Source: an uncultured bacterium | GTDB taxonomy: Bacteria; Armatimonadota; Hebobacteria; CAIYQO01 | DNA: 64,000 bases | Reading direction: 5' to 3' | NCBI GenBank assembly: GCA_964638715.1 | Contig: CAZWZF010000005.1 | Location: 37,824-101,823, forward strand | Shown here: positions 1,365-53,751 of the stretch, in pieces | Numbering within the stretch: the stretch's first letter is position 1 | Layout: every line of letters starts with the position of its first letter | The notes under the pieces: model-generated | Told to the model about the DNA's origin: nothing | Databases searched by the model: none | The model's input: the letters and a program-made list of their open reading frames with translations, nothing else | Position numbers and translations under genes: made by a program

Positions 1365-1411
1365 AATACAGTAGGTTTGGAAAATAAATAACAAAAGGGG
1401 GTATTTTTCTT

Positions 1412-2542
1412 ATGTTACAACGTCAAAAGGGTTTCACTCTTATTGAACTACTGGTAGTGATAGCTATAATTGCTATCTTAGCCGCCATACTTTTTCCGGT
1501 ATTTGCCCGGGCGCGTGAGAAGGCGCGACAAACAACCTGCACAAATAATCAGCGTCAGATAGCGACAACCTTGTTGATGTATGCCCAGGACCATGAAGAA
1601 ATGTTGCCGGAAGAAACAACTGTATGGTCAAGCAGCAATTTAGATCCTGGAGTGCTGGTTTGCCCGACAAAAGGAAAAAACACTCCAAATGGTTATGTTT
1701 ATTCCATGATGATTGCCGGTCGGTCGTTGGGCGATATTGGCGACCCAACTAAAAGCGCGATGATTGCCGATGGCGCGCATACTGTAACCGCCACTGAGGC
1801 CGCTACGAATGTTGCTTATGCCGCACAGGATTTTGATTTAACACGCCATAGTGGCAAAATGATAAGTGCGTTTGTAGATGGTCATTGCGAATCTATCTCT
1901 ACTTCACCTATTATTTTATCATATGATGGAAAATTAGGAATGTTATCTTCACAAGTAAAAGCGACAATTGAGGCGTCATTAAAAACAAATTTAAACGCGA
2001 AAAATATCACTCAGATATTATCCAGCAACGGTAGTTCTGTTGTAACCTGCTCCGGTTCCGCGCCGGCTTGGCTTGGTACCGTTGCCGGAACTCCATCAAA
2101 TATCGCGTTGAAATCTGGTATGGACTGGGGTGGTACAACTTATATGCCATTGTTATCCAACACAGCTTACCCTATCAATACATCTTTGGATTTCACAATT
2201 ACGCCCAACTCATCTGCCGGCAACAAAAAGATTGCGGTTGTAATATATTGTCCGGTGCGTACATCAAATGTACCGGCGCGATATATGAATTCTGCAACCG
2301 CCTCAGGATGGCCACCAAGTTCATCAATTGGCGGTGGTGTGTATATAAGTAAAGGCAGTGATAAAGCCACTACACCATATATTGATATGGCTTCTGATGG
2401 TGGCAACACCGGTCCTGCCGCGGACGCGATGCTTTTTACTGTTCCAATATTGAAAAATATTCCTGTTACAATTCATCTGACATTTGCGTCAGATTCCTGC
2501 AATGTTAATCAGTCAGGATTGTATTTAGCTATTGAACCATAA
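1412..2542 (+). CDS. prepilin-type N-terminal cleavage/methylation protein with H-X9-DG motif (DUF1559-like) and a C-terminal module shared with 8946 and 10202
   Basis: Leader [45 protein letters not shown] with G|F site and Glu+5. H-X9-DG motif [23 protein letters not shown] lies upstream. Confidence 0.85.
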
Positions 2543-2598
2543 TCTGCTTGCATAATTTTAGTAGTCCGGAGTATCATATCATTATTATCGCTTGCATT

Positions 2599-2640
2599 TA
2601 TATAGTACAGGTAACTACAAGGGATTGCCCGTACTATATA
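2599..2640 (+). terminator. hairpin after the H-X9-DG gene (10-bp perfect stem TATATAGTAC/GTACTATATA, then TTT)
   Basis: Inverted repeat read directly. It is nested inside a second inverted repeat AGTCCGGA/TCCGGACT. Confidence 0.4.
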
Positions 2641-2701
2641 TTTAAAGCGAAATTATATTAATGTATAATCCGGACTATTATTTTGACAAAGGACTATTTT
2701 A

Positions 2702-4687: not shown

Positions 4688-4716
4688 ACTGCATTATTAA
4701 GATAAAGGGAGAACCA

Positions 4717-6591: not shown

Positions 6592-6602
6592 GGAGAATTT
6601 TT

Positions 6603-7928: not shown

Positions 7929-7938
7929 AGGTTGCAAT

Positions 7939-8805
7939 ATGCCGGATATCGCTAATGAATTATATCAACATAAATCGCATTTCTGGAATCAGGCAACAGA
8001 TAATCTTTTATTTGATACCTGTGGGATTAATGTTGCATTTGTAGGCATAAGTTATAATATCACACCGTATGAATCATTATATGGCGATGCTAATAATTAC
8101 GGCTTATCTTATGTAAGCAGTGGTTCGGCAAGGATAATTATAGATAATGAAACCTTTGTTGTCAGTCGTGGCGATATAGTTTTATTCCCAAAAAACAAAA
8201 TGAATGCTATTTACCCGGATACTGATTGTAATTGGGAATGGTGCTGGATAGTGATGGGTGGTGCGCCAATAGACCGTATAGTAGAAGAATCAGGATGGTT
8301 AAATCATCCATGTCCTGTAATTACCAATACATCATTACCGTTTCTAACTATCACAAAATCAATGATGCAATCATTCCATCTTAAACCTAATGGCAGTTTA
8401 TTAGTAGGTGGTTTGTTGTTGCAACTGCTTGGGCATATCGCGCAGTCGAATGTTAACAGCGAAATAATAATTCCACAATCAGACCGTGACCAGCAAGTAA
8501 CAGATATCATAAGTTACATGGGACGGCATTTAACAGCACCATTAACGCTGGAGGAACTTGCTGAAAATTTTTACCTGTCACCGTCTCAATTAAGCAAATT
8601 ATTCCGCCGTATTACCGGGGTATCCCCAATACAATATTTCAAATATTTACGTATAGAAACCGCGAAAGGATTGTTGCGGTCATCCATGAGCATTAGCAGC
8701 ATTGCAGTACAGGTAGGTTTTGACGAAATTGTAACTTTCGACCGCGCCTTCAAACGTATTACCGGCATGACACCACGCCAATATCGGCTGGAAATTTGCA
8801 GATAG
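7939..8805 (+). CDS. AraC family transcriptional regulator (cupin-like sensor plus HTH)
   Basis: The C-terminal LSPSQLSKLFRRITGVSPIQYFKYLRIETAKGLL...FKRITGMTPRQYR is typical of an AraC double HTH. Confidence 0.85.
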   Translation: MPDIANELYQHKSHFWNQATDNLLFDTCGINVAFVGISYNITPYESLYGDANNYGLSYVSSGSARIIIDNETFVVSRGDIVLFPKNKMNAIYPDTDCNWEWCWIVMGGAPIDRIVEESGWLNHPCPVITNTSLPFLTITKSMMQSFHLKPNGSLLVGGLLLQLLGHIAQSNVNSEIIIPQSDRDQQVTDIISYMGRHLTAPLTLEELAENFYLSPSQLSKLFRRITGVSPIQYFKYLRIETAKGLLRSSMSISSIAVQVGFDEIVTFDRAFKRITGMTPRQYRLEICR

Positions 8806-8853
8806 ATTTAACTAATTCTTAATGATATTTTTGAAATTGGCATTAATTGTCTA

Positions 8854-8882
8854 TTGACATGCTGAGTTTATTATTGTATAAT
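8854..8882 (+). promoter_or_regulatory. consensus sigma70 promoter TTGACA-N17-TATAAT
   Basis: TTGACA at 8854-8859 and TATAAT at 8877-8882 with a 17-nt spacer. It lies about 65 nt upstream of the 8946 start. Confidence 0.65.
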
Positions 8883-8945
8883 TTCTTATATATTATAGTT
8901 AGCGCTAACTATAATATTTATATAAGCGCGAAAAGGAGAAAATGT

Positions 8946-10172
8946 ATGAATATTCTTAATTCGAGGAAGGGGTTTACACTCATTGAATTACTGGTTGTAA
9001 TTGCCATTATTGCCATCCTCGCCGCTATTCTATTCCCTGTATTTGCTCGAGCCCGCGAGAAAGCGCGACAGACTACCTGCACAAACAATCAACGGCAAAT
9101 AGCAACATCTGTAATGATGTATGCGCAGGATCATGAAGAGACATTGCCAGCAGCATCAGACTGGACAAACTCCATTAATATGGGGGATGGTAAAATATTC
9201 GACTGTCCATCTACCAGTGGTTCTACCACCGGTGGTCTTCCTGATTATATTTATTTTGCCGGAAAAAATAGTGTCACTTATAAAGAGGGTTTATTATCAT
9301 CACGAACTTTGGGTGATGTTACCGACCCATCAGCAACCCCGCTTATTTGTGACCGTGCTATCAGTTATCCGTCACCATATGTTGCTACCTCTGACGCCAA
9401 CGATTATATTTACGTAGATACTGATATTATTCCGGCTATAGATTTTCGTCATAACAGCAATGTAATAGTTGTATTCATGGATGGCCATGTTGAGGCAAAA
9501 CCTAAATCATCAACAGATATTTATTTCTTTCTTCGCGTGATATCTGATAAAGATTATGTAATAGCTAATCCGAGTATCGCATTTACAGATAAAGCAGGAA
9601 CAGACAGCACGTATACTCAAAAAAATCTGGACAGATTATGGCAAAGCCAGAATATCAAATATCTGTATTATGGTGCCCGTACCGGCAATTCACCTGGATG
9701 GTATAATAATAAAGGCGGCACAACCGCTCCTAAATGGGTTGGCAGCATTGCTTTAACTGACCCGGGAGCAACCGGATGTACTGTAATTCCATCAGGATTT
9801 GGTGAATTATCAATATGGTGGGGTGTAACATCAAAATTTACTACTATGTATGCCCGCTCCGGCGGTGGCGGTTCAGTGCAACATAACGCGCGTCTGACCA
9901 TTACACCTGCTGCCGGTTTAGCCACGATGAAACGTGTTGCCGTTACTTTATCACGAGACCCTGAAGGTTGGGCCTCAGTAAAAGACGGAGGATCGCAGGT
10001 GACAGTAACCGGGTATGGCGCACTAAACCTGGCATTGCCGACAACAACAATTTCCGCCAGCACGACATACTACTCTGTAGCATTAATACCGGTTGTAACC
10101 GGAAAAGCTATAACAATAGACCTGAAACCTAATTGTTATGGTGGTGGTATGTCTGTAATTTTTGAAGAATAG
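8946..10172 (+). CDS. prepilin-type H-X9-DG protein, first of a tandem paralogue pair
   Basis: The ATG at 8946 follows AAAAGGAGAA and gives [20 protein letters not shown]9-DG motif [12 protein letters not shown]. The C-terminal module aligns with 10202-11446. Confidence 0.85.
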
Positions 10173-10201
10173 AACTATTTCGCAATAAAAAGGAGAAGAT
10201 T

Positions 10202-11446
10202 ATGCAAAATATTAAAAAAAATGGGTTCACTCTGATAGAACTTCTCGTCGTGATAGCCATTATTGCCATCCTCGCCGCTATACTTTTTCCGGTATTTGCC
10301 CGTGCGCGCGAAAAAGCCCGTCAGACTACATGTACATCAAACCAACGGCAGATAGCAGCATCTTTGCAGATGTATGCACAGGACCATGAGGAAGTTATGC
10401 CGGATGCCGCTTCATGGGCTCAGGCTGCGAAAGCTGGAGAGGACAAGATTTATGACTGTCCGGCATCTGGCCGTAAAGGCAGTGGCGGCGACCCGGATTA
10501 TATCTATATCGGTGCCAAATATACCGGGGCAGGCACAGGCAGCGATACACTGCTTTCCACTGGTTCTATGGGTGAATTTCCTGACCCGGCAGTAACTCCT
10601 ATGATAGGGGATCGTATAACAACCTCACTGATACCCTACATTACCTATAATGATGCTGGACCACCAGCAGTGTTGATTACTGATCAGGATATTGTTCCAT
10701 ATATAGGTTTTCCACATAATGGCAGCGCTATATTCGCGTTTTTGGATGGTCATGTGGCATCAGTAGCGCAGGCAAGTGTAAATGGGCCATTTTTTGTTTA
10801 TGGCAAAGGTAAATCTGACCCGGTAATTTGTAACCCGGTAGTTATTTATAAAAGTCAGGGTGGAACAGGTTCACCGGATGTATGGACCCAAAGCAGTCTT
10901 GACCAATTATGGAACAATAAAAGCGTAAACTACCTTTATTACGGAACCGCGGCAGGATCAAGTGTAAAGGCATGGATTACTAACACCGGTGTCGCCAGTG
11001 CGCCTTCGTGGATTAATACCATCACCCCGTCAGACCCGGGTGGCACAAATTGTATTACCATCGCCAGCAGTTTTGGCGAAATGAAGATAAATTGGAACGG
11101 AAACAATAAATATACAACTGTTTATTGCCGTTCCGGTGGTGGTGGTCAGGTACAGCATAACGGACGCCTTTCCATTGTACCGGCAAGTGGTGTCTTAGCA
11201 ATGAAGAAAATAGCGGTCACCATGGCGATAGATCCGGAAGGTTGGGCATCCGCGAAAGACAATGGTACATCTTTGGCGGTAAATACCTTAAGCGCGGCCA
11301 ATTTTGGTTTGCCGATGACAAATATCGTTCATGGGGTTACTTATTATTCTATCATGTGGGTACCGGTAATATCCGGAAGAAATATCACATTGGATTTAAT
11401 GCCGTATTGTTATGGATGTTGTATGGCAGTCGCTTTTGAGGGATAA
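10202..11446 (+). CDS. prepilin-type H-X9-DG protein, second of the tandem paralogue pair
   Basis: Leader [47 protein letters not shown]9-DG motif [12 protein letters not shown]. The C-terminal block [16 protein letters not shown]...[10 protein letters not shown] is shared with 8946. Confidence 0.85.
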
Positions 11447-11467
11447 ATAAAGAAAATTTTCGTTTTA

Positions 11468-11520
11468 GGTCACTTTAACAAGCACAGTAACCGGTCGCTG
11501 AGCCTGTTGAAGTGACCTTT
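11468..11520 (+). terminator. long imperfect hairpin followed by TTTT
   Basis: AGGTCACTT...AAGTGACCT arms followed by a T-run, starting about 20 nt after the stop codon. Confidence 0.5.
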
Positions 11521-11777
11521 TAAGCCATTAGCAACCAAATAATATTAATTCCATAGCCCATGACAACACCACCGGGTAAGTTTATAAATAAAATCAAACG
11601 CACTGTAACAGCATAATTTCTTCGTTGTTAGGAATCCGGACAAGTATATTAATTATGTTGAATAAATATCCATATTTTTGAATAAAATGCTATTTATTTT
11701 TTACATATTTAAGATTAGAATGTTAAAAAAGTATGTGAATAACCAGCGGTCTGGTATTTTATTTAATTGGAGAAGAT

Positions 11778-12844: not shown

Positions 12845-14377
12845 ATGTATAGTTTGATTCAGGTGATAAAATTTAGCAGTTTAATCTTTATCCTGGCGAT
12901 GGTTATCCCGGCGTATGCGGTGATTTCCGTTCCATCGTTCTTCTCAGAGAATATGATTCTGCAACGTGATGTGCCGGTTCCTCTGTGGGGTTGGGCCGAT
13001 GAAGGCGAGGCTATTTCAATTATCTATGGAAATCATCAGCTTAAAACGGTAACAAAAGATGGACGCTGGCGGGTAGAACTCCCCGCTATGCCGGCCGGTG
13101 GTCCGTATACACTGGCGATCAGCGGCAAAGACCCAAACCAGACATTGTTATTCAGTCAGGTATTGGTCGGTGAGGTGTGGATTGTCTGTGGTCAGTCAAA
13201 TGCCGGACTACCGTTACACGCATGCGATAATTACGATGATGCTATTGCCCACAGAAATGATTACCCGAATATCCGTGAGGTAGAACTTGGCCGGCGTAAT
13301 TGTCATACGGTGACCACTCCGCAGGATAACGCATATTCCTATTGGGGTGCATGTAAGTGGCAGGATGCGTCGTATCTCGTTACGCGTTGGAGCACTGGCG
13401 ACAAACCATTATCACAAACTGTCCCGGGTTGTATGAGCGGGCTGTCATACTTTTTTGCCCGCGAATTGTATAAGCATTTTGACAGTAAAGTACCGGTAGG
13501 TATTGTTCAGCTTGGGGCGATTTTGCCGGTGCAGACTTGGGTAAGCGACGCTACTGTGGCGGCAACACCGTTGCTTGCACCGGTGCGCGGTAAAGGTTAC
13601 CCTAATGCGACTTCGGCAGGATACAATGACCAGGTATCTCCACTGGCGCCATTCCCAGTGCGCGGGGTGGTATATTACCAGGGAGAGATGAACGCCGGAA
13701 AAGGGAACGGACCTTTTTACCAGGCAGGACTGACGGCTATGATTCAGGATTGGCGCAAAGTGTGGAATAATCCGGATTTGCCTTTCCTGATTGTACAATT
13801 AGCTGGTTTTATCAAACATCTGGGACCGGAAGATAAGCGACTTGATATGGACGCTGCCACCCTGGCGAAGTTCACTGGTGAAAATGTAGATCACGGATTC
13901 TGCCACATCCGGCAGGCACAATTAGATGTCTCACGCGCTGTGCCGCATGTTGGTTTAGCCGTTACAACTGATATTGGCGACCCTTATGACATACATCCAC
14001 GCAAGAAATTACCGGTTGCACAGCGGTTGATGCTGCAGGCACGCAAACTGGCATATGGTGAGAAGGTAGTAGCTGATAGTCCATATCCGGAACAGGTAGA
14101 TTTTAAAGATAATGAATGTCAAATTCGTTATGGTGGAATTGGTGGTGGCCTGGTGATAAAAGATGGCGCGTTAAAAGGATTTGAATTAAGCGCAGACGGA
14201 AATACTTTCATAAATGCAAAAGCTGTAATCCGGGGTGACACCGTGATAGTGACTGCCACCGATATTAAATCACCAGTTGCGGTGCGTTATGCCTGGGCCG
14301 GTTGGCCGGTAGCGACATTATACAACATGGAAGGACTACCCGCGACACCATTCCGTTGGGCACAACATAAGGAATGA
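12845..14377 (+). CDS. sialate O-acetylesterase-like carbohydrate esterase (SASA/DUF303)
   Basis: Signal/anchor N-terminus. CGQSNA and GVVYYQGEMN motifs are typical of the SASA family. Confidence 0.7.
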   Translation: MYSLIQVIKFSSLIFILAMVIPAYAVISVPSFFSENMILQRDVPVPLWGWADEGEAISIIYGNHQLKTVTKDGRWRVELPAMPAGGPYTLAISGKDPNQTLLFSQVLVGEVWIVCGQSNAGLPLHACDNYDDAIAHRNDYPNIREVELGRRNCHTVTTPQDNAYSYWGACKWQDASYLVTRWSTGDKPLSQTVPGCMSGLSYFFARELYKHFDSKVPVGIVQLGAILPVQTWVSDATVAATPLLAPVRGKGYPNATSAGYNDQVSPLAPFPVRGVVYYQGEMNAGKGNGPFYQAGLTAMIQDWRKVWNNPDLPFLIVQLAGFIKHLGPEDKRLDMDAATLAKFTGENVDHGFCHIRQAQLDVSRAVPHVGLAVTTDIGDPYDIHPRKKLPVAQRLMLQARKLAYGEKVVADSPYPEQVDFKDNECQIRYGGIGGGLVIKDGALKGFELSADGNTFINAKAVIRGDTVIVTATDIKSPVAVRYAWAGWPVATLYNMEGLPATPFRWAQHKE

Positions 14378-24285: not shown

Positions 24286-24373
24286 AGTGACTTTAAGCAA
24301 AAGTCCTGTATTAATTAATTTCTTTGATTTTCTTCCTGCTGGCTGGCGGGTTAAGCATCGTCCGATTTGTTGT

Positions 24374-27311: not shown

Positions 27312-27494
27312 ATGGGGTTTACCGAATACTTACCATTTTTAAAGGAGGTGTATCATCCAATCCGTCGTTCCGGTTTTACTCTCATCGAGTTGTTGGTCGT
27401 CATAGCTATGTTAGTTCTCTATCTTTCCTGTCAACAACGGCGGTGCCATAACCTTGAACGCGGCGGGTGTATATACCAGCAATTTCCGGGGTGA
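27312..27494 (+). pseudogene. leader-only stub of a prepilin-type gene
   Basis: [16 protein letters not shown] (about 27363-27410) after AAAGGAGG, then unrelated sequence and a stop. There is no H-X9-DG part. Confidence 0.55.
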
Positions 27495-27552: not shown

Positions 27553-28449
27553 ATGAATATTTTAAACCATGCCCAATGGCTCCCGTTTTCACCCGGTAAT
27601 GATGATCACTTTTTCGTTGACACCTTCCCCAGTAACTACCCGTCACTGCCAGAATCTCTCTGTGCCGGGTGGGAAATTCGGACATCACCCAACTATCGTT
27701 ACTCAGGCCAAACCCGGGTGGGGCCAGTGGGAACAATCCAGTATACAGTGCGCGGAGAAGGTTGCCTCAGGTACAATAACAGAACTTATAAAGTATTGCC
27801 CGGACAGGCGTTTCTACTGGAATCCCCCGGTGATTATTTATACAACTTGCCGGATGAAGCACCTCTTTGGGAATTTATATTCCTGACATTTAATGGGGAG
27901 GACCTGCTCCAGCATTTTCGTCAGTTCATAACGACTCACGGACCAGTCATAACTCTTGACCCGGAGCATCCAATAGTTACACTGCTGCTGCAAATCGGTC
28001 AACGCATCGCAACCAAACAATTCAAAACAGCTGAAGACAGTGCGATATGGCTTTACCAAATGATGATGGAGTTACTGAAAGTAGCAAGTGCAGAAGCGTC
28101 ATATCCAACCTTAATACAATGCGTATTGCAACATCTGGCGCAACACTTCACCCGGGATATCAACGGCGAGGAACTCGCGGATATCGCCGGCATATCTTTG
28201 GCGCAGTTCTACCGTGTCTTCAAAACACATACCGGATATACACCCGGGCAGTATATCACTATGCAGCGTATGCGCCAGGCTTTGTATTATTTGCGCTATA
28301 CTCACCTGTCAATAGAGGAGATCGGCCGCCGGTGCGGTTTCAGCAGCGGGTGGCATCTGGGGAAAATCTGTCGAAAAGTGCTGGGACATTCCCCCAGTCA
28401 TTTTCGCCAAGCAGCAACTCTCCCCCCTGAATCCTGCTGGCGCATTTGA
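27553..28449 (+). CDS. AraC family transcriptional regulator
   Basis: C-terminal LAQFYRVFKTHTGYTPGQYITMQRMRQALYYL...IGRRCGFSSGWHLGKICRKVLGHSPSHFR double HTH. Start chosen at MNILNHAQ. Confidence 0.8.
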   Translation: MNILNHAQWLPFSPGNDDHFFVDTFPSNYPSLPESLCAGWEIRTSPNYRYSGQTRVGPVGTIQYTVRGEGCLRYNNRTYKVLPGQAFLLESPGDYLYNLPDEAPLWEFIFLTFNGEDLLQHFRQFITTHGPVITLDPEHPIVTLLLQIGQRIATKQFKTAEDSAIWLYQMMMELLKVASAEASYPTLIQCVLQHLAQHFTRDINGEELADIAGISLAQFYRVFKTHTGYTPGQYITMQRMRQALYYLRYTHLSIEEIGRRCGFSSGWHLGKICRKVLGHSPSHFRQAATLPPESCWRI

Positions 28450-28625
28450 AAAACTGACAATCTATAAAAAATGATACTGGCAGCAATGTGATTCCCATGA
28501 GAAAATTAGACCAGTAAAAAGCTATTATTAGCACTGTTAAAATCATCACAGTGGTGATATTATAATTTAACGGTGTCAACCATATCACAATATGACACCG
28601 TCAATACACCTTGAAGGAGGTTTTT

Positions 28626-29768
28626 ATGTGTAAACTTAAACGAGGGTTCACCCTCATCGAATTACTGGTCGTGATAGCCATAATTGCTATCCTCGCCGCG
28701 ATTCTGTTCCCCGTCTTCGCCCGTGCTCGAGAAAAGGCGCGGCAAACTACCTGCACGAACAACCAGCGACAATTAGCTGCATCTATGCAAATGTATGCTC
28801 AGGATCATGAAGAATTACTTCCATCATCCGCAACAATATGGCAGGATCTAAAAATAGAACCTCAGGTATTACAATGTCCTACAGCTGGAAAAAACTTAAC
28901 GGTGGCTTATGCTTATAACAACATCCTTTCCGGGATGTCACTCGGTAATGCGACTGATCCTACCTCGGTATGGCTTACTGTAGATGCTGATGACAGCAAA
29001 GCACCATCGTACCGCCATTCAGCAAAAACTTTATTAAGTTATCTTGACGGACATGTCGGGCAAAGAGATCCCGGGATAGTGGCGAAATACGTCGGCGCTG
29101 AACTTAACATGGTTGCATTCCGATCTACGGACATCGGGACGAAGTCATATACACTCCCGAATCATCCCAATGCATATGGGAGGGAAGGCTATATCATGTT
29201 CGGCACTGCCGGTGCGTCGGTGACACAGGAAGCCAGCGGCGATTTTACCGGAACAATCTATACCGGCACCCGGTCGGGCACAAATTTCAACAATCCAGCC
29301 ATCGGCATCGCTTCTATCGCTATCCTCGGGACCGGGCAAGGAGGCAGTGGAGGACCCAGCGTCAATGGCCGTTGGCGCAGTGATAACGGAAGCGCCGGCG
29401 GGAATCTGGACGATGCGTCGCGGGGTATCGGCCCATCGGTCCCTGACGTCGTGAACGGCACTTTCTGGTACCGATGGAATGGCGAAACTTCCCTTGATTT
29501 GCTGAAAATCACGCTTTCCGCCGATATGGTGCCCACCACACTTCGTATCGGTATCATCACCGACCGCGGAGACAGCCAGAAACCGGGAGCGATCGGTGTG
29601 GGCAATAACAGGAAGAATAGGTTAGGCGCGAACAGCTACGGCTCCCCGGATCTGTACTTCTTCGATTTGACAGGGTTGCCGGGAGACACAGCCCCGATTT
29701 CGATGACACCCTATGCTGCCGGGCAGTGGGGCACGGCTATTCGCGGGCTGGTCTTTGATACCCAATAG
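28626..29768 (+). CDS. prepilin-type H-X9-DG protein with a distinct, GC-richer C-terminal module
   Basis: AAGGAGG then the ATG at 28626. [47 protein letters not shown]9-DG motif [12 protein letters not shown]. Confidence 0.85.
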
Positions 29769-29800: not shown

Positions 29801-29844
29801 GCTATCTCTCATAATTCATGTTTTCATGAATTATGAGAGATAGC
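29801..29844 (+). terminator. 20-bp perfect hairpin (GCTATCTCTCATAATTCATG/CATGAATTATGAGAGATAGC, loop TTTT)
   Basis: Read directly, 33 nt after the stop. No T-tract follows, so it may be a terminator or a palindromic element. Confidence 0.45.
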
Positions 29845-40580: not shown

Positions 40581-43500
40581 TCAGGGCGCCATGGTGGCCA
40601 TTCCCCACAGTTTGGGCTCCGGCATGATTTCGCCGGGGACGTCGTTGACCAGGCCGGTGGCCTTGTTGGCCCAATACATGCGCAGCGCCCGGTTCGTGCC
40701 GGTGGCGTCGGAGAAGATCACGCCGAGATCGAGCTTGTAGCTCTTGCCCGGCTGCGGGTCGAAGCCCAGGGTCTTCAGCGGCATGGCGGCCTCAACGGTG
40801 TAGCCGTTGCCGCGGCGGTTGATGGTCACTGTGGCATCGGTGAGCACCTGCACATCCTCCACCGTGTAATTACGCCAGGGGCAGGTGAAGGTCTGCGGGT
40901 GTTTCACGCCGGCCGTCTTCCAGCGGTAGAGCACCACCGCCGGCTTGCCGTCCAGCACCGAGATAAGCAGACGCAGATCGCCCGGCACGGCCTCCCCGCG
41001 CTTGGCGGCGCCGTCGGGATTCGTCCCAAGCTGCAGGTCCACCGAGTCGCCGGTGACGAAGAGCTGGGTGACATCCTTGCCGCCGTTGACCATCGGGTTG
41101 GCGTCGCCATTCACGTCGTAGGCCAGGTAGAGACTGGTGCCATCAGTAGCCACGGCGCCGCGGGCGCTGGAGTTGCCGGCGCTCCAGGACACAATTGATT
41201 CTTTAGCGTATTTATCCAGCTTACCGTCGAGTTTTGCCGGCGTCGCGATGCGGGAGATGGTCAGCACATTTGCCACTGCCTTCGCCGCCGCCCGTTCCTT
41301 TTGCAGCTTCTCCGCGGCAACCAGATCCTTGCCTGTAATTTTAACAGTTGCGGTCGGGATAGTCTGTAACTTGTCAAAGCCGTTAAGCTTAATCAGGTTG
41401 TAATTGCCACCGCCGGCAATGAGGTAATATTCATTCGTAGCCTTAGCCTTAAAGAAGTAACCACCAAACCATTCACCACCCATTGTTACGCCACCGAGTG
41501 GGGAGCCGGCCCTTGGGTCGTTGGGCCAGGCGTCAGGGCCAATGCGGCAATCCTGAAAGACATTCCCCAGTAGTAACCCGTCAGTAGTCATGATGTAAAG
41601 CCGGCCCATGTTGGATCCCATGGCGAATGCTTTGCCCACTGGCGTCTCCGCCGTGCCGATGCAACTAAGAGTGCCGTAGAGGCGGTCGTCACGGTCAGGG
41701 ATAGGCGCGAGGTGCGAGCCGTGCACGTCATTGAACATGTCCGGCCCGTAACTCCAGAGCGTGGTGCCGTCGTCAGCCAGGCAGGTGATTGGCGTGCCGA
41801 CGATTACCTTGCCGCCGCCGGCACAGTAGATCTTGACCGGGTGTTCGCCGGCCTTGCCAACCGTGCGAAGTTGCGCCAAGTCCCAAGTAGGCACACCGGC
41901 AGTGGTCCAACCCTTGAGCGGCACAGTATTCACCTCCGGGGCGGCGGTGTAGATGTTAAACTTATCGTCCAGCCAATAGCCGCCCCAGTAGCCGAGTCCC
42001 AGGGTCGCGGTGGTGGTCTGGCACTCCTCGGCCTGCATCTGGCCGTCGTCATTGAGATCGCTCCAGACAAAACTAAAACTGATATTCTTGTTGGCGTCTT
42101 TTGGCGGGGTCAGCGGCAGTTTGCGCTTCTCACCCCAATGATCCTGGACAGCGCCTTCAGCGGTCAGCCGAACTCCTGATCCCATTTCCGCGACCTTAAC
42201 CAGGGCGTCACCACGGCGCTGATAGAGCTCACCGCGCTTGCTCATGATATACTCACGGCCGTTGATCTTCAGCAGTTCACCGTTAATGTTGTCATCGATG
42301 AGGTTCGCGATTACCGTGGCCTTGTTCGTTGCATAGTCGAGTTTGAACTCGCAGCCGTTGCCGAAAACCCGCGTCTTGTCGTCCGGATCAACACAGGCGC
42401 CCATACCACCATAGGTGGTGGGACCGATGAAGTCGGTCACTAAATTACCATCGGCACCCCATACGCTGAAGCGCTTGGGGTACATCGTCTCTTCAGCCAC
42501 CCAGAGTCGGCCTTTCGGATCGATGGCGATACCATTAGGGTTGCGCATGCCCCCGGCTACCCATTTTCCTGGCAACGGCCGGCCACCGGCCACGCCGACG
42601 ACATGGTCGAAGACGCCAACAGCGGTGAAGACCTTCACCTGTTGCGGACCGCGGTCGGCAACATAGATTCTACCCTGGGCGTCCAGCGCCAGCCCCATTG
42701 GCTTTTCAAGGTTGGAAGTAATCAACGGCGTCACCTTGCCGTCCGCAATCTTTACCACGCTTTGCCCGGAGACGGCGAAGAGCGTACCGGCTTTGTCGTA
42801 GGCCAGGCCACCCGGCGCCGCCAGTTTCACTTCGCCCTGCGGCTGCATCGTCTCTTTATTGAAGAAACGCACCACATCCGGACCGACCAACGTCACCGCC
42901 AGCCGATCAGCAGAGACCGCCAGACCGCCTATCGTCGCCTTCTCCTCCGCAATGGTCACCTTCACCATCAACTGCGGCTCCGGCTGGGTGGCGAACGGCG
43001 CGTATTTCCCGTCGGTCAGCAGCAGGCGGCCAACGCTCGTATCATTGACACCCCATCCATGACCGCCGTTCATGCCGGCGTAGGCGTAGCGGTCATCAAC
43101 AGCGACGGCGGCGATTCCCTGGAACTTGGACTCGCCCCATTTGCGCCGGCCGTTAAGGTCGGCGCCGACCAGCGCCCGGCCGCTTTCGCACCCGATTGCA
43201 GCAAGAAGCATCATATCTTTGCCCGCGGCCACGGCCACGTTGGGGTTGTGATCGCTCATCCAGCCGCCGGTCCCGTCGCCGGTCTCCCATGGCGGCACAC
43301 CCGGCGAACCATATCCAACCTCATAGACAGGATCGATACCTGCGTGCAGCAGGCCGCGCATTGTGTATTTACCAGGCGGCATCAGTTTACCCTGGTCATC
43401 GGTACCGTCCCACAAATCGGTTTGCTTGCCCTTAGCGCGCGGAGCCATGCCGATAACGTTCTTCACGCGGTGTCCCTGAGCGTCGTCAACTACCAGTGTG

Positions 43501-44423
43501 GCAAACCCGTCGAAGGGCATGGTGTATTTCAGCTTCACCGGCCCCTGCGTCTTCTGCAAGTACTCGGTCGAGGCGGCGTATTGCACGACCGGCAGTTTCA
43601 GATTCCCCTTCGGCTCCAGCGTCACCGGCCCCCAGTCATTTATCGCCGTCCAGAAGAATTCTCGGCTGCTTTTGCCCGGCATCAGCAGGTCGGCGTAGCG
43701 GTGAATGGGGAAGGTACGGCCATCGGGTGGTCCCCATAGAAATTCCATACCCATGTTAAATGTATCGCCGGGGCCGTAACTCTTCGGGGCCTTGTATGGC
43801 TTGCCAGTGGCTTTGACAATGGCGCTCTGACCGGTGATGAGCTTCCACGGCAGCGCAATCTCCTGAGTATAACCCTTGCCGTCTTCGCCCATCATGAAGG
43901 CTTCCTGCGCCCCCACCTTGACCGCATCGCTGATGTATTGGAAGGCGTTGACGTCATTCTCCTTGTCGCGTCCGCCGGAGAAAACTCCGTATGAGATGTT
44001 CACCACCGAATGCTTGGCGGCGGTGGAGTACCAGCAGGTGACATCGCTGATCGCCATGTCGGTTTTCAGCCGCAACTGCAGGCAGTCGCTCTTCCAGCCG
44101 CTGCCAATGTCGAAATTGGAGTCGACCATATTATACATCGGCGTCGGGTCGCGCCAGATGATGGACAGGTAGAAATTCTCCTTGTCGTACATGGCGGCGA
44201 CCTTGGTCGAGTAGTTGTTACGCGTCCTGAAGTTGGCGAAGACGTCGATCTGCCCGGACAGATCCCAGTCGTTCACCTTACCGTCAATGACGACTTTGCC
44301 AGGCGTCGGTACGGCGTGCAGCGCGTTGTTGTTCGTCTGCTGGGCTATTACCGGTATACATAGACCGGCGAAACAAAGCAGGACCAGAAAACCAATAATT
44401 TTTCTGTTAATGAATGATTTCAT
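40581..44423 (-). CDS. giant secreted protein homologous over its full length to 30027-33959; GC-rich
   Basis: Signal peptide. VVIDGKVNDWDLSG...YDKENFYLS. GKQTDLWDGTDDQGKLMPPGKYT. NHL-like GRIYVADRGPQQVKVF. C-terminal LQLGTNPDG...GDLRLLISVLDGKPAVV aligns with the other copy. RBS AAGGGAG. Confidence 0.7.
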   Translation of the reverse strand: MKSFINRKIIGFLVLLCFAGLCIPVIAQQTNNNALHAVPTPGKVVIDGKVNDWDLSGQIDVFANFRTRNNYSTKVAAMYDKENFYLSIIWRDPTPMYNMVDSNFDIGSGWKSDCLQLRLKTDMAISDVTCWYSTAAKHSVVNISYGVFSGGRDKENDVNAFQYISDAVKVGAQEAFMMGEDGKGYTQEIALPWKLITGQSAIVKATGKPYKAPKSYGPGDTFNMGMEFLWGPPDGRTFPIHRYADLLMPGKSSREFFWTAINDWGPVTLEPKGNLKLPVVQYAASTEYLQKTQGPVKLKYTMPFDGFATLVVDDAQGHRVKNVIGMAPRAKGKQTDLWDGTDDQGKLMPPGKYTMRGLLHAGIDPVYEVGYGSPGVPPWETGDGTGGWMSDHNPNVAVAAGKDMMLLAAIGCESGRALVGADLNGRRKWGESKFQGIAAVAVDDRYAYAGMNGGHGWGVNDTSVGRLLLTDGKYAPFATQPEPQLMVKVTIAEEKATIGGLAVSADRLAVTLVGPDVVRFFNKETMQPQGEVKLAAPGGLAYDKAGTLFAVSGQSVVKIADGKVTPLITSNLEKPMGLALDAQGRIYVADRGPQQVKVFTAVGVFDHVVGVAGGRPLPGKWVAGGMRNPNGIAIDPKGRLWVAEETMYPKRFSVWGADGNLVTDFIGPTTYGGMGACVDPDDKTRVFGNGCEFKLDYATNKATVIANLIDDNINGELLKINGREYIMSKRGELYQRRGDALVKVAEMGSGVRLTAEGAVQDHWGEKRKLPLTPPKDANKNISFSFVWSDLNDDGQMQAEECQTTTATLGLGYWGGYWLDDKFNIYTAAPEVNTVPLKGWTTAGVPTWDLAQLRTVGKAGEHPVKIYCAGGGKVIVGTPITCLADDGTTLWSYGPDMFNDVHGSHLAPIPDRDDRLYGTLSCIGTAETPVGKAFAMGSNMGRLYIMTTDGLLLGNVFQDCRIGPDAWPNDPRAGSPLGGVTMGGEWFGGYFFKAKATNEYYLIAGGGNYNLIKLNGFDKLQTIPTATVKITGKDLVAAEKLQKERAAAKAVANVLTISRIATPAKLDGKLDKYAKESIVSWSAGNSSARGAVATDGTSLYLAYDVNGDANPMVNGGKDVTQLFVTGDSVDLQLGTNPDGAAKRGEAVPGDLRLLISVLDGKPAVVLYRWKTAGVKHPQTFTCPWRNYTVEDVQVLTDATVTINRRGNGYTVEAAMPLKTLGFDPQPGKSYKLDLGVIFSDATGTNRALRMYWANKATGLVNDVPGEIMPEPKLWGMATMAP

Positions 44424-45159: not shown

Positions 45160-45188
45160 TTGACAACTATCCGTGATACAACTATAAT
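45160..45188 (+). promoter_or_regulatory. perfect consensus sigma70 promoter TTGACA-N17-TATAAT
   Basis: Hexamers at 45160-45165 and 45183-45188. It lies about 58 nt upstream of the regulator ATG. Confidence 0.65.
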
Positions 45189-45246: not shown

Positions 45247-46425
45247 ATGAAAAATTCAAAACAACATCATTATATAAGAATCTCCAACATTATGCGTGAT
45301 TATATTGAACGCGGTGATTGGTATCCTCACATGATGCTTCCGGGTCGTCGCGCCCTGGCACAAACGTTTAAGGTGGCCATAAATACCATTGAGCGTGCAG
45401 TGACCTTATTAGTGACAGAAGGTCTGTTGCAGACAGATGACCGGCGTGGAACATTTGTCGCCGATCGAACTACCCCTGGTGACCTGCCGTCCTCACTCCA
45501 GCCTTCCCCGGTGCGGGATCATACACGGCCTGCCACTGTCGGAATTCTGTCTACGCTGTGGTCAGTTGCCGATGCAACAACTTTCGAAACACAATGGGTG
45601 TATCATCTGCTGCGCGGTTGTGAACAAACCCTGGCCGAGTATTCCGAGGTGACGCATCGCTTTGTCAATCGTGTGCCGGACGGAAGTCGGCAAATGTTGA
45701 CTATGGAGCAAGCGGTAGAGTTGCTGTTATCAGAACCTGTTGATGGCATAATTCTGCTGAATGAAACAGAAATTACCCCGCTGCTTGCCCGCGTTGACCC
45801 CACCCGTGTCCCGATTATTGTCGTCAACATGACACCGCTGGGTCTTACGATGCATGAAGTGACCGCTGACGATGTAGCCGCCGGTTATCTGGCGGTACAG
45901 CATCTACTTTTACGCGGCTATCGTCGCATCACGACATTTTTCCCGTTTTCCGGCGATTGGGTACGTGCGCGCCTGGCGGGCATTACCGAGGCGATGCGCC
46001 GGACCCAGGTGACGGATTGTTCGATGACAGAATTTATACCAGCTACAAATGTAGAACCGACACATATAAACCAGGCCGCCGTCGGCTATGCGCATGGACA
46101 TGCGTTGCTGGCCACGGTGGCACCCGGAGAGGCCATCATCGCTGCCAATGATTGGATTTCTGATGGTATCCTGTGCGCCGCAAATGAACTGGGTCGCGTT
46201 CCCGGGCAAGATTTCGGCCTGATTAGCTTTGACGACTATCCAATTTCGCGATTAAAGGGATTAACCAGCCTGCATCCTCCGTTGGAAGCGATGGGCCGCG
46301 AAGCGGCACGGATGATGGCACGGGCGCTGCAGGGTGACGCGATTCCACTGCATGTATCTCTGGCTGCGTATGTCATGGCAAGATCCTCGACTTTGCGTGC
46401 AAGCGCAAGGGAGGATGCCACATAA
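45247..46425 (+). CDS. GntR-type wHTH fused to a LacI/PBP1-type sugar-binding domain (transcriptional regulator)
   Basis: LPGRRALAQTFKVAINTIERAVTLLVTEGLLQTDDRRGTFV (GntR HTH), then a periplasmic-binding-protein-like body (VGILS..., IISFDDYPIS-like LISFDDYPIS). Confidence 0.75.
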   Translation: MKNSKQHHYIRISNIMRDYIERGDWYPHMMLPGRRALAQTFKVAINTIERAVTLLVTEGLLQTDDRRGTFVADRTTPGDLPSSLQPSPVRDHTRPATVGILSTLWSVADATTFETQWVYHLLRGCEQTLAEYSEVTHRFVNRVPDGSRQMLTMEQAVELLLSEPVDGIILLNETEITPLLARVDPTRVPIIVVNMTPLGLTMHEVTADDVAAGYLAVQHLLLRGYRRITTFFPFSGDWVRARLAGITEAMRRTQVTDCSMTEFIPATNVEPTHINQAAVGYAHGHALLATVAPGEAIIAANDWISDGILCAANELGRVPGQDFGLISFDDYPISRLKGLTSLHPPLEAMGREAARMMARALQGDAIPLHVSLAAYVMARSSTLRASAREDAT

Positions 46426-46429
46426 CCTA

Positions 46430-46459
46430 TTGACAACCGGTTAAATTTGGGTGTAATAA
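46430..46459 (+). promoter_or_regulatory. candidate promoter TTGACA-N18-TAATAA
   Basis: The -35 is perfect, but the -10 matches only 3 of 6 positions. Confidence 0.3.
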
Positions 46460-46513: not shown

Positions 46514-47545
<1,032 letters not shown>

Positions 47546-47591
47546 ATAGGAATACCTGCAAAATTCAGTTTTTTATTTACTTTTAATTAAT

Positions 47592-47631
47592 AAGAGCATG
47601 ATTCCTCAAAACAGAAAGGAAACATGCTCTT
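47592..47631 (+). terminator. 14-bp hairpin (one mismatch) after the discoidin pseudopilin gene
   Basis: AAGAGCATGATTCC / GGAAACATGCTCTT arms. No clear T-tract. Confidence 0.35.
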
Positions 47632-47760
47632 ATCGAAAAAATTAACCTTACAGGAGAAATGACCATGAACCAAAATCCCACCACACCTTCACAAACCATC
47701 ACTCTCGACGGCTTGGTTGGATGGCACCGTGGACTGCTCAGGAGACACGTATCGACAGTC

Positions 47761-52324: not shown

Positions 52325-52371
52325 CTTCGACAGTTTCAATAACTGTATGCTGCTTAATGAAACTGTCGAAG
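52325..52371 (-). terminator. 14-bp perfect hairpin after the 52393-53601 gene
   Basis: CTTCGACAGTTTCA / TGAAACTGTCGAAG arms with a 19-nt loop. Confidence 0.45.
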
Positions 52372-53654: not shown

Positions 53655-53683
53655 ATTATATTTTTTTAAGGAGAATTTGTCAA
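53655..53683 (-). promoter_or_regulatory. perfect consensus sigma70 promoter TTGACA-N17-TATAAT (minus strand)
   Basis: The reverse complement of 53678-53683 is TTGACA and of 53655-53660 is TATAAT, with a 17-nt spacer. Confidence 0.6.
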
Positions 53684-53709: not shown

Positions 53710-53751
53710 AATTGACAATTGTCAATTGACAATTGTCAATTGTCCATTGCC
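53710..53751. repeat. heptanucleotide array alternating AATTGAC/AATTGTC (palindromic TTGACAATTGTCAA units)
   Basis: Six 7-nt units read directly. TTGACA occurs twice on each strand. Confidence 0.8.

What the first reader, a model, noticed from the sequence alone, without database searches (positions are those of the whole stretch)
7939..11446. Regulator-then-pseudopilin cassette repeated three times
Each sugar-type regulator is followed on the same strand by one or two H-X9-DG genes that have their own strong promoter or RBS:
- AraC 7939-8805, then a consensus promoter at 8854-8882, then 8946 and 10202.
- AraC 27553-28449, then 28626.
- GntR/LacI hybrid 45247-46425 (itself behind a perfect TTGACA-N17-TATAAT at 45160), then 46514.

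This fixed architecture suggests that each pseudopilin-like protein is a dedicated, substrate-specific output of its regulator. The 8946/10202 pair is a tandem duplication that shares the C-terminal block GGG(S/Q)VQHN...DPEGWAS.
Basis: partly seen in the sequence, partly recalled or inferred. Interest (0 to 1): 0.65.

Follow-up and report, generated by a model that had tools for sequence, protein, structure and literature searches.

The report
Sugar-regulated modular pilin-like genes in glycan loci

Summary
Three sugar-type regulators (AraC 7939, AraC 27553, GntR-HTH/PBP hybrid 45247) are each followed on the same strand by a prepilin-type gene (permutation p=0.0015). 8946 and 10202 are a tandem duplicate (50% identity), and the cited consensus promoters exist.

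None follows a regulator.

The window comes from an uncultured lake Armatimonadota bacterium with a very large paralogue family. In 80 related loci, regulators are about 8-fold enriched directly 5' of pseudopilin arrays (about 27% of arrays), but most are divergent, not same-strand.

- Cassette 1: the pairing is absent in orthologous loci. The conserved partner of the 8946 subfamily is a downstream SASA esterase.
- Cassette 3: partly conserved, and transcribed in situ.
- Cassette 2: could not be tested.

Family-wide, these genes are self-contained units with a near-consensus promoter, a strong RBS and a 3' hairpin. The proteins have an invariant pilin head and variable C-terminal modules, one of them discoidin/CBM-like.

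Best reading: these are locus-specific, glycan-binding modular pilins displayed on a shared type IV filament and regulated with the locus. Their function is inferred, not shown.

The parts
1412..2542 (+). Pseudopilin paralogue with no upstream regulator. It heads the conserved block pseudopilin-GHL6-AXE1-HEAT-AraC.
   Evidence: N_methyl + DUF1559 N-terminus. The orthologous gene and order are conserved in L001/L017 and L004.
2559..2680 (+). Nested stem-loop directly after pseudopilin 1412.
   Evidence: RNA fold z = -6.2, 0 of 200 shuffles as stable.
7939..8805 (+). AraC-family regulator (cupin-type sensor + HTH_18). It is the last gene of the conserved 1412-GHL6-AXE1-HEAT block.
   Evidence: Pfam. 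Orthologues P0001, P0004 and P0006 and their contexts.
8854..8882 (+). Perfect sigma-70-type promoter TTGACA-N17-TATAAT in front of 8946.
   Evidence: 3 in the window vs 0.00 expected.
8890..8917 (+). Perfect 28-bp palindrome between the -10 element and the RBS of 8946. Candidate operator or 5'-UTR hairpin.
   Evidence: As RNA it is only weakly stable (z -1.4).
8946..10172 (+). Pseudopilin, first of the tandem pair. Its C-terminal module is a near-orphan.
10202..11446 (+). Pseudopilin, second of the tandem pair, 29 nt after 8946 with its own RBS.
   Evidence: 50% identity to 8946. RNA contigs over its 5' part.
11462..11525 (+). Terminator-like stem-loop followed by a U-run after the tandem pair.
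   Evidence: RNA fold z = -4.2.
12845..14377 (+). Secreted SASA-type carbohydrate esterase, the conserved downstream partner of the 8946/10202/P0048 subfamily.
   Evidence: Pfam. The P0048 context has Polysacc_deac_1 + SASA downstream.
27312..27494 (+). Mini prepilin-like ORF (60 aa, ...[16 protein letters not shown]...) just upstream of the second AraC. Either a remnant or a small pilin.
   Evidence: RNA contigs 27303-27761.
27553..28449 (+). AraC-family regulator of cassette 2.
   Evidence: Pfam. No relatives retrievable.
28570..28601 (+). Perfect 9-bp inverted repeat (N14 spacer) between a -10-like TATAAT and the RBS of 28626.
   Evidence: RNA fold z = -3.5.
28626..29768 (+). Pseudopilin of cassette 2, followed by a giant CBM9/FlgD_ig/beta-propeller protein, a protein with a GH101 C-terminal beta-sandwich match, and GH38.
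   Evidence: Its C-terminal module has no relative in the loci or metagenome scan.
29801..29844 (+). Perfect 20-bp-arm stem-loop right after pseudopilin 28626.
   Evidence: z = -5.0.
40581..44423 (-). Giant secreted CBM9/FlgD_ig/NHL protein, divergent from the cassette 3 regulator and its most constant neighbour in orthologous loci.
   Evidence: Pfam. Contexts of P0018, P0020, P0022 and P0023. Co-expressed in situ.
45160..45188 (+). Perfect sigma-70-type promoter in front of the GntR/PBP regulator.
45247..46425 (+). GntR-HTH + LacI-type periplasmic-binding-protein-fold regulator of cassette 3.
   Evidence: Pfam. Homologue series.
46430..46457 (+). 11/12 promoter match (TTGACA-N16-TGTAAT) in front of 46514.
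46514..47545 (+). Modular pseudopilin: pilin head plus a C-terminal F5/8 type C (discoidin, CBM32-like) module.
   Evidence: Pfam 31.1 bits vs cutoff 28.2. The module recurs on pseudopilins L084_2, L083_6, L070_0 and L051_1/2. AF2 pilin half has pLDDT 70-91. Transcribed in situ.
47590..47633 (+). Stem-loop after 46514. RNA contigs break here in two of three metatranscriptomes, with about a 35-45% depth drop.
   Evidence: (z = -4.6).
51467..52246 (-). Headless pseudopilin paralogue. It keeps the H-X9-DGH strand and the C-terminal module of 52393 but lacks the prepilin helix.
   Evidence: (E 2e-17), alignment A7.
52325..52371 (-). Stem-loop (14-bp stem) after pseudopilin 52393.
   Evidence: z = -6.2.
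52393..53601 (-). Pseudopilin with an unannotated C-terminal module and a terminal zinc ribbon. It has no adjacent regulator.
53655..53683 (-). Perfect sigma-70-type promoter in front of 52393.
53710..53742 (.). Array of overlapping TTGACAATTGTCAA palindromes just upstream of the -35 of the 52393 promoter. Operator-like.

Best explanation
The window is a glycan-degradation island of an uncultured freshwater Armatimonadota bacterium. It carries six full-length members and one decapitated member of a very large paralogous family of modular type-IV-pilin-like proteins.

Shown:
- Each protein has a class III signal peptide (G|FTLIE) and a 38-residue N-terminal stretch that is invariant at the protein level while its wobble positions vary freely.
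- Each has a roughly 150-aa pilin-type head that ends in the H-X9-DGH beta-hairpin.
- Each has a variable C-terminal module: discoidin/CBM32-like in 46514, and unannotated beta-rich modules elsewhere.
- Each gene or tandem pair is a self-contained expression unit with a near-consensus sigma-70 promoter, a strong Shine-Dalgarno sequence and a 3' stem-loop.
- These units sit in front of secreted and cytoplasmic carbohydrate-active enzymes, and particular pseudopilin subfamilies keep particular enzyme partners across genomes.
- Sugar-type regulators are enriched next to them, but orientation and partner vary.

Inferred:
- A prepilin peptidase processes the proteins, and the invariant alpha-1 helix lets all paralogues enter one shared type IV filament or pseudopilus.
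- There they present locus-specific glycan-binding modules at the cell surface, playing the substrate-capture role that SusD-like proteins play in Bacteroidota loci.
- The local AraC or GntR/LacI-PBP regulator senses a breakdown product and switches the whole locus, pseudopilin included.
- Because the promoters are intrinsically strong, control is more likely by repression or de-repression than by classical AraC-type activation.
- The 3' hairpin lets the pilin transcript outnumber the downstream enzyme transcripts.
For: - Family and organism: at least 525 pattern matches that encode a relative of the query, in a handful of Armatimonadota MAGs. L001 and L017 are the same 24,958-bp contig of the Lake Mendota MAG bin191, syntenic with window 62-8805.
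- Pilin nature: N_methyl and TIGR02532 pass their cutoffs. Partial alpha-1 matches to GspG, ComGC and PilA. AF2 pilin half at pLDDT 70-91, with a type IV pilin as the only Foldseek hit of meaningful probability.
- Shared-partner argument: residues 9-46 are invariant in all six paralogues while third codon positions vary.
- Modularity: the discoidin module recurs on five other pseudopilins. The 52393 module recurs on other pseudopilins and on a 1471-aa non-pilin protein.
- Expression unit: three perfect promoters vs 0.00 expected. Family-wide >=11/12 promoter match in 36% vs 7% (OR 7.7, p 6e-7). 3' hairpins at 60% vs 17% (p 3e-14).
- Glycan context: more than 15 CAZyme-type genes in the window, and CAZyme or sugar-metabolism genes downstream in the survey.
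- Conserved pseudopilin-enzyme pairs: 1412 with GHL6, the 8946 family with SASA, and pseudopilins with the giant CBM9/propeller proteins.
- Regulator association: OR 8, p 2e-6.
- Condition-dependent expression: in the same lake samples cassette 3 and its divergent giant gene are transcribed at about a third to half of housekeeping contig depth. 8946 (perfect promoter), 28626 and 1412 are near zero.
- Precedents: lectin-bearing modular pilin PilC (PMC9934059). Xylan-induced, polysaccharide-binding CbPilA (bioRxiv 10.1101/614800).
Against: - No glycan binding, surface location, processing or filament assembly has been shown.
- No prepilin peptidase, assembly ATPase, platform protein or secretin was found in the window or in the fetched loci, and the whole genome could not be searched.
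- Only one of the six C-terminal modules has a recognised carbohydrate-binding-type fold. The 8946/10202 module is a near-orphan, and both AF2 attempts failed for the C-terminal halves.
- Foldseek support for the pilin fold is weak (E 0.054).
- RNA evidence comes from unstranded assembled contigs, whose depth is a poor measure of expression.
- In situ, pseudopilin 46514 is only about 1.3-1.7x above its neighbours. It is not the large excess a major structural subunit would show.
- Upstream palindromes are not enriched family-wide.
Confidence: 0.5

Rival explanations
1. Each pseudopilin is the dedicated, substrate-specific output of the regulator encoded immediately upstream, so regulator and pseudopilin form a fixed two-gene functional cassette.
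For: - Three of three regulators in the window are followed by a pseudopilin (p 0.0015).
- Adjacency is enriched in relatives.
- Cassette 3 is kept in the 88% and 55% orthologous loci.
- L051 is a parallel case.
- RNA contigs bridge regulator 45247 and pseudopilin 46514.
Against: - Cassette 1 is not conserved. AraC orthologues at 91% and 63% identity lack a downstream pseudopilin, and the 38% homologue is divergent from two pseudopilins.
- P0048, the only outside homologue of 8946/10202, has no adjacent regulator.
- In the 77% orthologue of cassette 3 the pseudopilin is upstream of the regulator. In the 40% one a giant gene follows instead.
- Thirteen of 17 regulator-adjacent arrays are divergent, and about 73% of arrays have no adjacent regulator.
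- Two window arrays (1412, 52393) have no adjacent regulator.
Confidence: 0.15
2. The pseudopilins are cargo-specific adaptor or minor pseudopilins of a type II secretion system. Each locus supplies its own pseudopilin, whose C-terminal module recognises the co-encoded secreted enzymes (for example the ~1300-aa CBM9/propeller giants) and loads them onto a shared secretion piston.
For: - The best partial NCBIfam matches include GspG, GspH, GspI and GspJ.
- Pseudopilins recur next to giant secreted proteins (L034, L042, L044, L062, L079, window cassettes 2 and 3) and keep specific enzyme partners.
- The invariant alpha-1 helix fits a shared machine.
Against: - The one recognisable C-terminal module is a discoidin/CBM-type sugar-binding fold, not a protein-binding adaptor.
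- The same modules also occur on enzymes, as carbohydrate-binding modules typically do.
- Several partner enzymes lack signal peptides by inspection of their N-termini.
- No T2SS genes were seen.
- I know of no precedent for cargo-specific pseudopilins.
Confidence: 0.15
3. A bindosome-like reading. The class III signal peptide is only an export and anchoring device, and the proteins are oligosaccharide-binding proteins that feed membrane transporters, as in the Sulfolobus bindosome, rather than filament subunits.
For: - Class III signal peptides on sugar-binding proteins are established in Sulfolobus (PMC3047682).
- Pfam names DUF1559 'SBP_bac_10'.
- The genes lie in sugar-utilisation loci under LacI/AraC-type control.
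Against: - No ABC, MFS or TonB-dependent transporter domain was detected among the window's called genes or among the families listed for survey neighbours.
- Conservation extends well beyond the signal peptide, to a ~150-aa pilin head with invariant residues.
- There is no similarity to known solute-binding folds.
Confidence: 0.1

Closest known systems
Modular type IV minor pilins with grafted lectin modules (Streptococcus sanguinis PilC; PMC9934059)
   Same: A pilin moiety (class III signal peptide, alpha-1 helix, small globular head) carries an extra C-terminal module. In 46514 the module is a discoidin-type sugar-binding fold.
   Different: - Here there is a very large paralogue family (at least 525 matches in a handful of genomes) rather than a handful of pilins in one pilus operon.
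- The genes are scattered through glycan-degradation loci, each with its own strong promoter and 3' hairpin.
- No pilus machinery is nearby.
- Glycan binding is not shown.
DUF1559 / prepilin-type 'H-X9-DG' paralogue families of Planctomycetota and other PVC bacteria (function unknown; 68 paralogues in Planctopirus limnophila, PMC10632474)
   Same: Prepilin N-terminus, a massive paralogous expansion, and an H...DG motif near the end of the pilin head. The N-terminal ~40 positions match the PF07596 profile.
   Different: - Only profile positions 2-42 of 268 of PF07596 match, and no NCBIfam H-X9-DG model is hit.
- The host phylum is Armatimonadota.
- The proteins carry additional ~200-aa C-terminal modules.
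Caldicellulosiruptor bescii type IV pilin CbPilA (bioRxiv 10.1101/614800)
   Same: A pilin encoded near carbohydrate-degradation and adhesion loci, induced by a polysaccharide (xylan), that binds polysaccharides and mediates attachment.
   Different: It is one major pilin in a canonical T4P locus of a Gram-positive organism, not many locus-specific modular paralogues.
Sulfolobus bindosome: sugar-binding proteins with class III signal peptides (PMC3047682)
   Same: A prepilin-type signal on proteins devoted to sugar acquisition, with assembly by a type IV filament-like system.
   Different: The system is archaeal. Its proteins are ABC-transporter solute-binding proteins, whereas no transporter genes accompany the pseudopilins here and the heads are pilin-like.
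Bacteroidota polysaccharide utilisation loci (regulator + SusC/SusD + enzymes)
   Same: A local sugar-sensing regulator, a non-catalytic extracytoplasmic component at the head of the locus, then glycoside hydrolases and esterases.
   Different: No SusC/SusD or TonB-dependent transporter is present. The non-catalytic component is a pilin-like protein. Any analogy is functional only.

Membership tests
Type IV pilin / pseudopilin superfamily | Class III signal peptide: short basic leader ending in Gly, Phe at +1, Glu at +5, and a ~21-residue hydrophobic tract. | tested here: met
   All six have K/R-G|[26 protein letters not shown]07963 scores 36-40 bits (cutoff 21.2) and TIGR02532 scores 35-37 bits (cutoff 16.3).
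Type IV pilin / pseudopilin superfamily | Lollipop fold: a ~50-residue alpha-1 helix packed on a small antiparallel beta-sheet. | tested here: inconclusive
   AF2 model of 46514 has helix 12-62 plus strands to residue 160 at pLDDT 70-91. The Foldseek top hit is D. nodosus FimA pilin at probability 0.85 but E 0.054 and TM 0.46.
Type IV pilin / pseudopilin superfamily | Processing by a prepilin peptidase and assembly by an ATPase/platform machinery. | not testable with these tools
   No such genes are in the window or, by motif, in the fetched loci.
DUF1559 (PF07596, SBP_bac_10) | A match across the 268-position domain. | tested here: not met
   Scores of 24-32 bits just pass the 23.3 cutoff, but only profile positions 2 to about 42 align.
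Prepilin-associated H-X9-DG domain family | A literal H-X9-DG motif at a conserved position after the pilin head. | tested here: met
   H169, D179 and G180 (then H181) are invariant in all six. The motif is also present in headless 51467. The bare regex also hits two unrelated window proteins, so position is what matters.
Prepilin-associated H-X9-DG domain family | A match to a curated H-X9-DG model in NCBIfam. | tested here: not met
   No such model appears among the hits at E<=0.01 for any of the six.
AraC/XylS transcription regulators | A C-terminal double HTH (HTH_18/HTH_AraC) with an N-terminal cupin-type ligand domain. | tested here: met
   7939 has HTH_18 at 81.6 bits and AraC_binding at 47.6 bits. 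27553 has 74.6 and 33.7 bits.
GntR-HTH / LacI-type sensor hybrid regulators | An N-terminal GntR winged HTH plus a periplasmic-binding-protein-fold sugar sensor. | tested here: met
   45247 has GntR at 45.4 bits and Peripla_BP_3 at 75.7 bits. The same architecture is seen in 30 homologues.
   Only candidate operators were found (28-bp palindrome at 8890, inverted repeat at 28570), and palindromes are not enriched family-wide.
   Cassette 1 is absent at 91% and 63% identity and divergent at 38%. Cassette 3 is kept at 88% and 55%, inverted at 77% and absent at 40%. Cassette 2 has no relatives.
Bacteroidota-type PUL | A SusC-like TonB-dependent transporter and a SusD-like lipoprotein pair. | tested here: not met
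   No such Pfam families were found in any of the proteins called in the window.
Modular lectin pilins | A recognised carbohydrate-binding module grafted on the pilin. | tested here: met
   Met for 46514 only: F5_F8_type_C at 31.1 bits vs cutoff 28.2, residues 221-330. The other five modules are unannotated.

The most novel reading that the evidence does not exclude
Armatimonadota, and by extension the PVC phyla with DUF1559/H-X9-DG expansions, use one shared and possibly retractile type IV filament as a programmable glycan-capture device. Each glycan-utilisation locus contributes its own sugar-induced lectin pilin, which slots into the filament through the invariant alpha-1 helix. This would be a SusC/SusD-independent route for binding polysaccharides and perhaps reeling them in. 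It would explain both the very large paralogue families of unknown function and the dextran-binding pili-like fibres seen on planctomycetes (PMC5394234).
Probability: 0.2. Interest if true: 0.85.

Novelty: new variant of a known kind. Interest (0 to 1): 0.55.

Why it matters
Prepilin-type paralogue families number tens of copies or more per genome in Planctomycetota (68 in P. limnophila, PMC10632474) and, as shown here, Armatimonadota. In the literature I could search they have no assigned function.

This window and its relatives tie them to three things that can be tested: sugar-sensing regulators, specific carbohydrate-active enzyme partners, and at least one recognisable sugar-binding module.

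If they are the substrate-capture components of glycan loci in phyla that lack SusC/SusD, that would fill a gap in how abundant freshwater and soil polysaccharide degraders acquire their substrates. It would also give annotators a marker for PUL-like loci outside Bacteroidota.

Tried and rejected
- **Gene conversion as the cause of the invariant N-terminus.** Rejected: wobble positions vary freely.
- **Homologue search for the 8946/10202 C-terminal module.** No hits in the word-indexed search. The exhaustive profile search found only the module's own cluster plus P0048. The other three hits are unrelated repeat proteins.
- **AF2 of 10202 with a 2-sequence alignment.** pLDDT 37, not interpreted.
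- **AF2 of 46514.** Only the pilin half is usable.
- **Synteny of cassette 2.** Two metagenome scans, with AraC 27553 and with the 28626 module, found no relatives.
- **Upstream palindromes as a family-wide operator signature.** Not enriched.
- **Rfam for the RNA-abundant intergenic element.** Only sub-threshold hairpin-like matches. The whole window yields only tRNA-Thr.
- **Type IV filament machinery by motif in the fetched loci.** None found.
- **Literature.** 'DUF1559', 'H-X9-DG', and Armatimonadota plus pilin gave no functional description. The Fervidibacter/Armatimonadota polysaccharide paper does not discuss pilins in its main text.
- **Transcription start sites.** They could not be mapped, because all RNA runs are held only as assembled, unstranded contigs.

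Full report
**What is in the sequence**

- 7939-8805 and 27553-28449 are AraC-family regulators, with a cupin-type AraC_binding domain plus HTH_18.
- 45247-46425 is a GntR-HTH fused to a LacI-type periplasmic-binding-protein sensor.
- 8946-10172, 10202-11446, 28626-29768 and 46514-47545 carry the prepilin N-terminal cleavage/methylation motif.

The perfect TTGACA-N17-TATAAT sites at 8854 and 45160 are real. The 64-kb window contains only three such sites against 0.00 expected in shuffles, and the third (53655-53683, minus strand) precedes a further pseudopilin. 8946 and 10202 are a tandem duplicate, 50% identical end to end, and share the quoted C-terminal block. Three of three regulators followed by a same-strand pseudopilin is unlikely by chance (permutation p = 0.0015).

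A whole-window gene map shows six full-length family members. The extra ones are 1412-2542(+) and 52393-53601(-). There is also a headless paralogue, 51467-52246(-), which keeps the H-X9-DGH strand and the C-terminal module of 52393 but has no prepilin helix. None of these three follows a regulator.

The rest of the window is a carbohydrate-degradation island. It encodes GHL6, AXE1, SASA, GH123-like, GH29, GH27/36, GH32, GH38 and GH57 proteins, a GDSL esterase, and two ~1300-aa CBM9/FlgD_ig/beta-propeller giants. I saw no transporter domain of any kind.

**Family assignment**

The proteins pass the prepilin N-terminal models. DUF1559 (PF07596) aligns only over profile positions 2 to about 42 of 268, and no NCBIfam H-X9-DG model is hit at E<=0.01. 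The literal H-X9-DG(H) motif is nevertheless invariant by position in all six. They are best described as a distinct lineage of pilin-like proteins related to, but not full members of, the DUF1559 family.

**Organism and family size**

A scan of one genome per species, using the six-paralogue alignment, returned at least 525 confirmed matches. The best 80 come from about seven MAGs labelled Armatimonadota or unnamed, several of them from lakes. One of these contigs (L017, the same contig as L001) is syntenic with window 62-8805 at 91% regulator identity. The window itself is held at about 99% of words in several lake-water metagenomes.

**Protein anatomy**

Residues 9-46 are identical in all six paralogues, yet the DNA alignment shows freely varying third codon positions. 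This is strong purifying selection on the protein rather than gene conversion. The simplest reason is a shared interaction surface, such as the core of a common filament or its assembly machine (inference).

AF2 with the six-paralogue alignment gives a confident pilin half for 46514: alpha-1 helix 12-62, then a small sheet. H143 and D153-G154 frame the last beta-hairpin. The only Foldseek hit with meaningful probability is a type IV pilin, but at E 0.054. PDB sequence searches match only the alpha-1 helix of type IV pilins and GspG.

The C-terminal halves are variable modules.
- 46514 has a discoidin (F5/8 type C) module above Pfam's cutoff. The module recurs on five other pseudopilins, once in two copies.
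- The 52393 module recurs on other pseudopilins and at the end of a 1471-aa non-pilin protein.
- The 8946/10202 module is a near-orphan. An exhaustive profile search of 1.84 billion representatives found only its own cluster and one 417-aa homologue, P0048.

**Is the regulator-pseudopilin pairing conserved?**

*Cassette 1: no.*
- AraC orthologues at 91% identity are followed by a cytoplasmic GH29-like protein, further enzymes and then GH123.
- At 63% identity GH123 follows directly.
- At 38% identity the AraC is divergent from two tandem pseudopilins.
- The conserved order is [pseudopilin 1412]-GHL6-AXE1-HEAT-AraC, so this AraC closes a block that is headed by a different pseudopilin.
- The stretch pseudopilin-pseudopilin-ADH-SASA occupies a variable slot.
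- P0048 has no adjacent regulator but is followed by a polysaccharide deacetylase and a SASA esterase. The stable partner of this subfamily is therefore the esterase.

*Cassette 3: partly.*
- Regulator then prepilin gene at 88% identity, where the prepilin gene is truncated and followed by an IS110 transposase gene, and again at 55%.
- Pseudopilin then regulator at 77%.
- Regulator then giant gene at 40%.
- The most constant neighbour is the giant CBM9/FlgD_ig/NHL protein.

*Cassette 2: untestable.* No relatives were found in two scans.

**General statistics from 80 independent loci**

- AraC- or PBP-type regulators make up 16 of 80 genes directly 5' of a pseudopilin array versus 9 of 296 elsewhere (OR 8, p 2e-6). 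Thirteen of the 17 regulator-adjacent array heads are divergent and four are same-strand.
- Pfam found five more LacI-type regulators among the remaining upstream neighbours, giving about 22 of 81 arrays.
- About a quarter of pseudopilins follow another pseudopilin.
- Downstream same-strand genes are a varied set of carbohydrate-active and sugar-metabolism enzymes, and many have no Pfam hit.
- The giant CBM9/propeller family recurs within one or two genes of pseudopilins in most survey loci where it occurs.

**Expression signals**

Pseudopilin genes are self-contained units.
- Near-consensus promoters (>=11/12) occur upstream of 36% of them versus 7% of other genes with a comparable intergenic region (OR 7.7, p 6e-7).
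- Five of six window genes are followed by a strong stem-loop (z -4.2 to -6.2). Family-wide, 60% versus 17% have z < -3 (p 3e-14).
- In the window, distinct perfect palindromes lie between the -10 and the RBS of 8946 and 28626, and just upstream of the -35 of 52393. Such palindromes are not enriched family-wide, so they remain local operator candidates only.

**In situ RNA**

Three lake metatranscriptomes, available as assembled unstranded contigs only, give the following.
- Cassette 3 and its divergent giant gene are transcribed at about a third to half the contig depth of nearby housekeeping genes.
- Contigs bridge regulator to pseudopilin (46173-46570 and 46115-46579), and one contig in X10 bridges pseudopilin to GDSL esterase (46570-47987).
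- In two runs contigs break around the 47590-47633 hairpin, with about a 35-45% drop in depth.
- In the same samples 8946 (perfect promoter), 28626 and 1412 are near zero.

This argues for locus-specific control on top of intrinsically strong promoters. That fits repression better than AraC-type activation (inference).

**Interpretation**

Shown:
- modular pilin-like architecture
- extreme conservation of the assembly helix
- strong self-contained expression units
- residence in glycan loci with subfamily-specific enzyme partners
- a statistical, non-fixed association with sugar regulators
- differential expression in situ

Inferred:
- the proteins are cleaved by a prepilin peptidase
- they enter a shared type IV filament
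- they display locus-specific glycan-binding modules
- the local regulators switch the locus as a whole

Precedents are the lectin-bearing modular pilin PilC of S. sanguinis (PMC9934059), xylan-induced polysaccharide-binding CbPilA (bioRxiv 10.1101/614800) and class III signal peptides on Sulfolobus sugar-binding proteins (PMC3047682). The related DUF1559 expansion in planctomycetes is still of unknown function (PMC10632474), and their pili-like fibres bind labelled dextran (PMC5394234).

None is excluded, but each fits the data less well.

**Verdict**

The underlying system is a new variant of known kinds (modular pilins, PUL-like loci). It is of moderate interest, because it makes the function of a very large orphan family testable.

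Noticed in passing
window 45000-45135 (core 45000-45063): A ~65-nt dispersed repeat sits in the intergenic region just upstream of the perfect promoter at 45160. DNA contig depth is about 2000 against a baseline of 18, and RNA depth is 58-183. Many different flanks join it. Copies at 85-94% identity occur in L030, L052, L053, L063 and L071. No Rfam family matches. The orthologous intergenic region in L086 is about 320 nt shorter, and no copy of the repeat was found in L086.
   Followed up: partly
window 27312-27494 (+): A mini prepilin-like ORF (60 aa, [16 protein letters not shown]...) with an AAAGGAGG RBS lies directly upstream of AraC 27553. It is covered by RNA contigs (27303-27761). It is either a remnant or a very short pilin.
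   Followed up: partly
window 51467-52246 (-): A headless pseudopilin paralogue. It retains the H-X9-DGH strand and the C-terminal module of its neighbour 52393, but has no signal peptide or alpha-1 helix. It could be decaying or repurposed.
   Followed up: partly
window 52393-53601 (-), last ~25 residues; also L048, L030, L035: A C-terminal zinc-ribbon (CxxC...CxxC) sits at the end of a presumably extracytoplasmic pilin-like protein, and is conserved in three relatives. It is unexplained.
   Followed up: no
L086 7240-8947 and L087 (same): In the 88% orthologue of cassette 3 the prepilin gene is only 175 aa long and is immediately followed by an IS110-family transposase gene. The truncation may be due to the insertion.
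   Followed up: no
whole window: No ABC, MFS, PTS or TonB-dependent transporter domain was detected among the 38 called genes, despite more than 15 carbohydrate-active enzymes, several of them apparently cytoplasmic.
   Followed up: partly
window 23918-24421 (+) next to 24735-27146 (+): A 167-aa N-terminal fragment of an FAD_oxidored protein lies directly upstream of a full-length 803-aa paralogue that also ends in a discoidin domain. It is possibly a pseudogene remnant.
   Followed up: no
window 19493-20551 (+) and 39536-40480 (-): Two URO-D-like genes are embedded in the glycan clusters. The same family appears twice among genes directly downstream of pseudopilins in the survey. Its role in sugar loci is unclear.
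   Followed up: no
window 51363 / 60307: RNA contigs in all three metatranscriptomes report a joint between 60307 and 51363 with the letters GGAGTAA in between. Both places lie at gene ends next to terminator hairpins. It is probably an assembly artefact of similar 3' ends.
   Followed up: no
window 49586-49662 (-): tRNA-Thr (TGT) lies in the gap between the GDSL esterase cluster and the GH57-like gene. It is the only Rfam or ARAGORN hit in the window.
   Followed up: yes
window 53710-53742: Overlapping TTGACAATTGTCAA palindromes sit immediately upstream of the perfect promoter of 52393. The half-site equals the -35 hexamer, so this could be an operator or a cluster of competing -35 elements.
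   Followed up: partly
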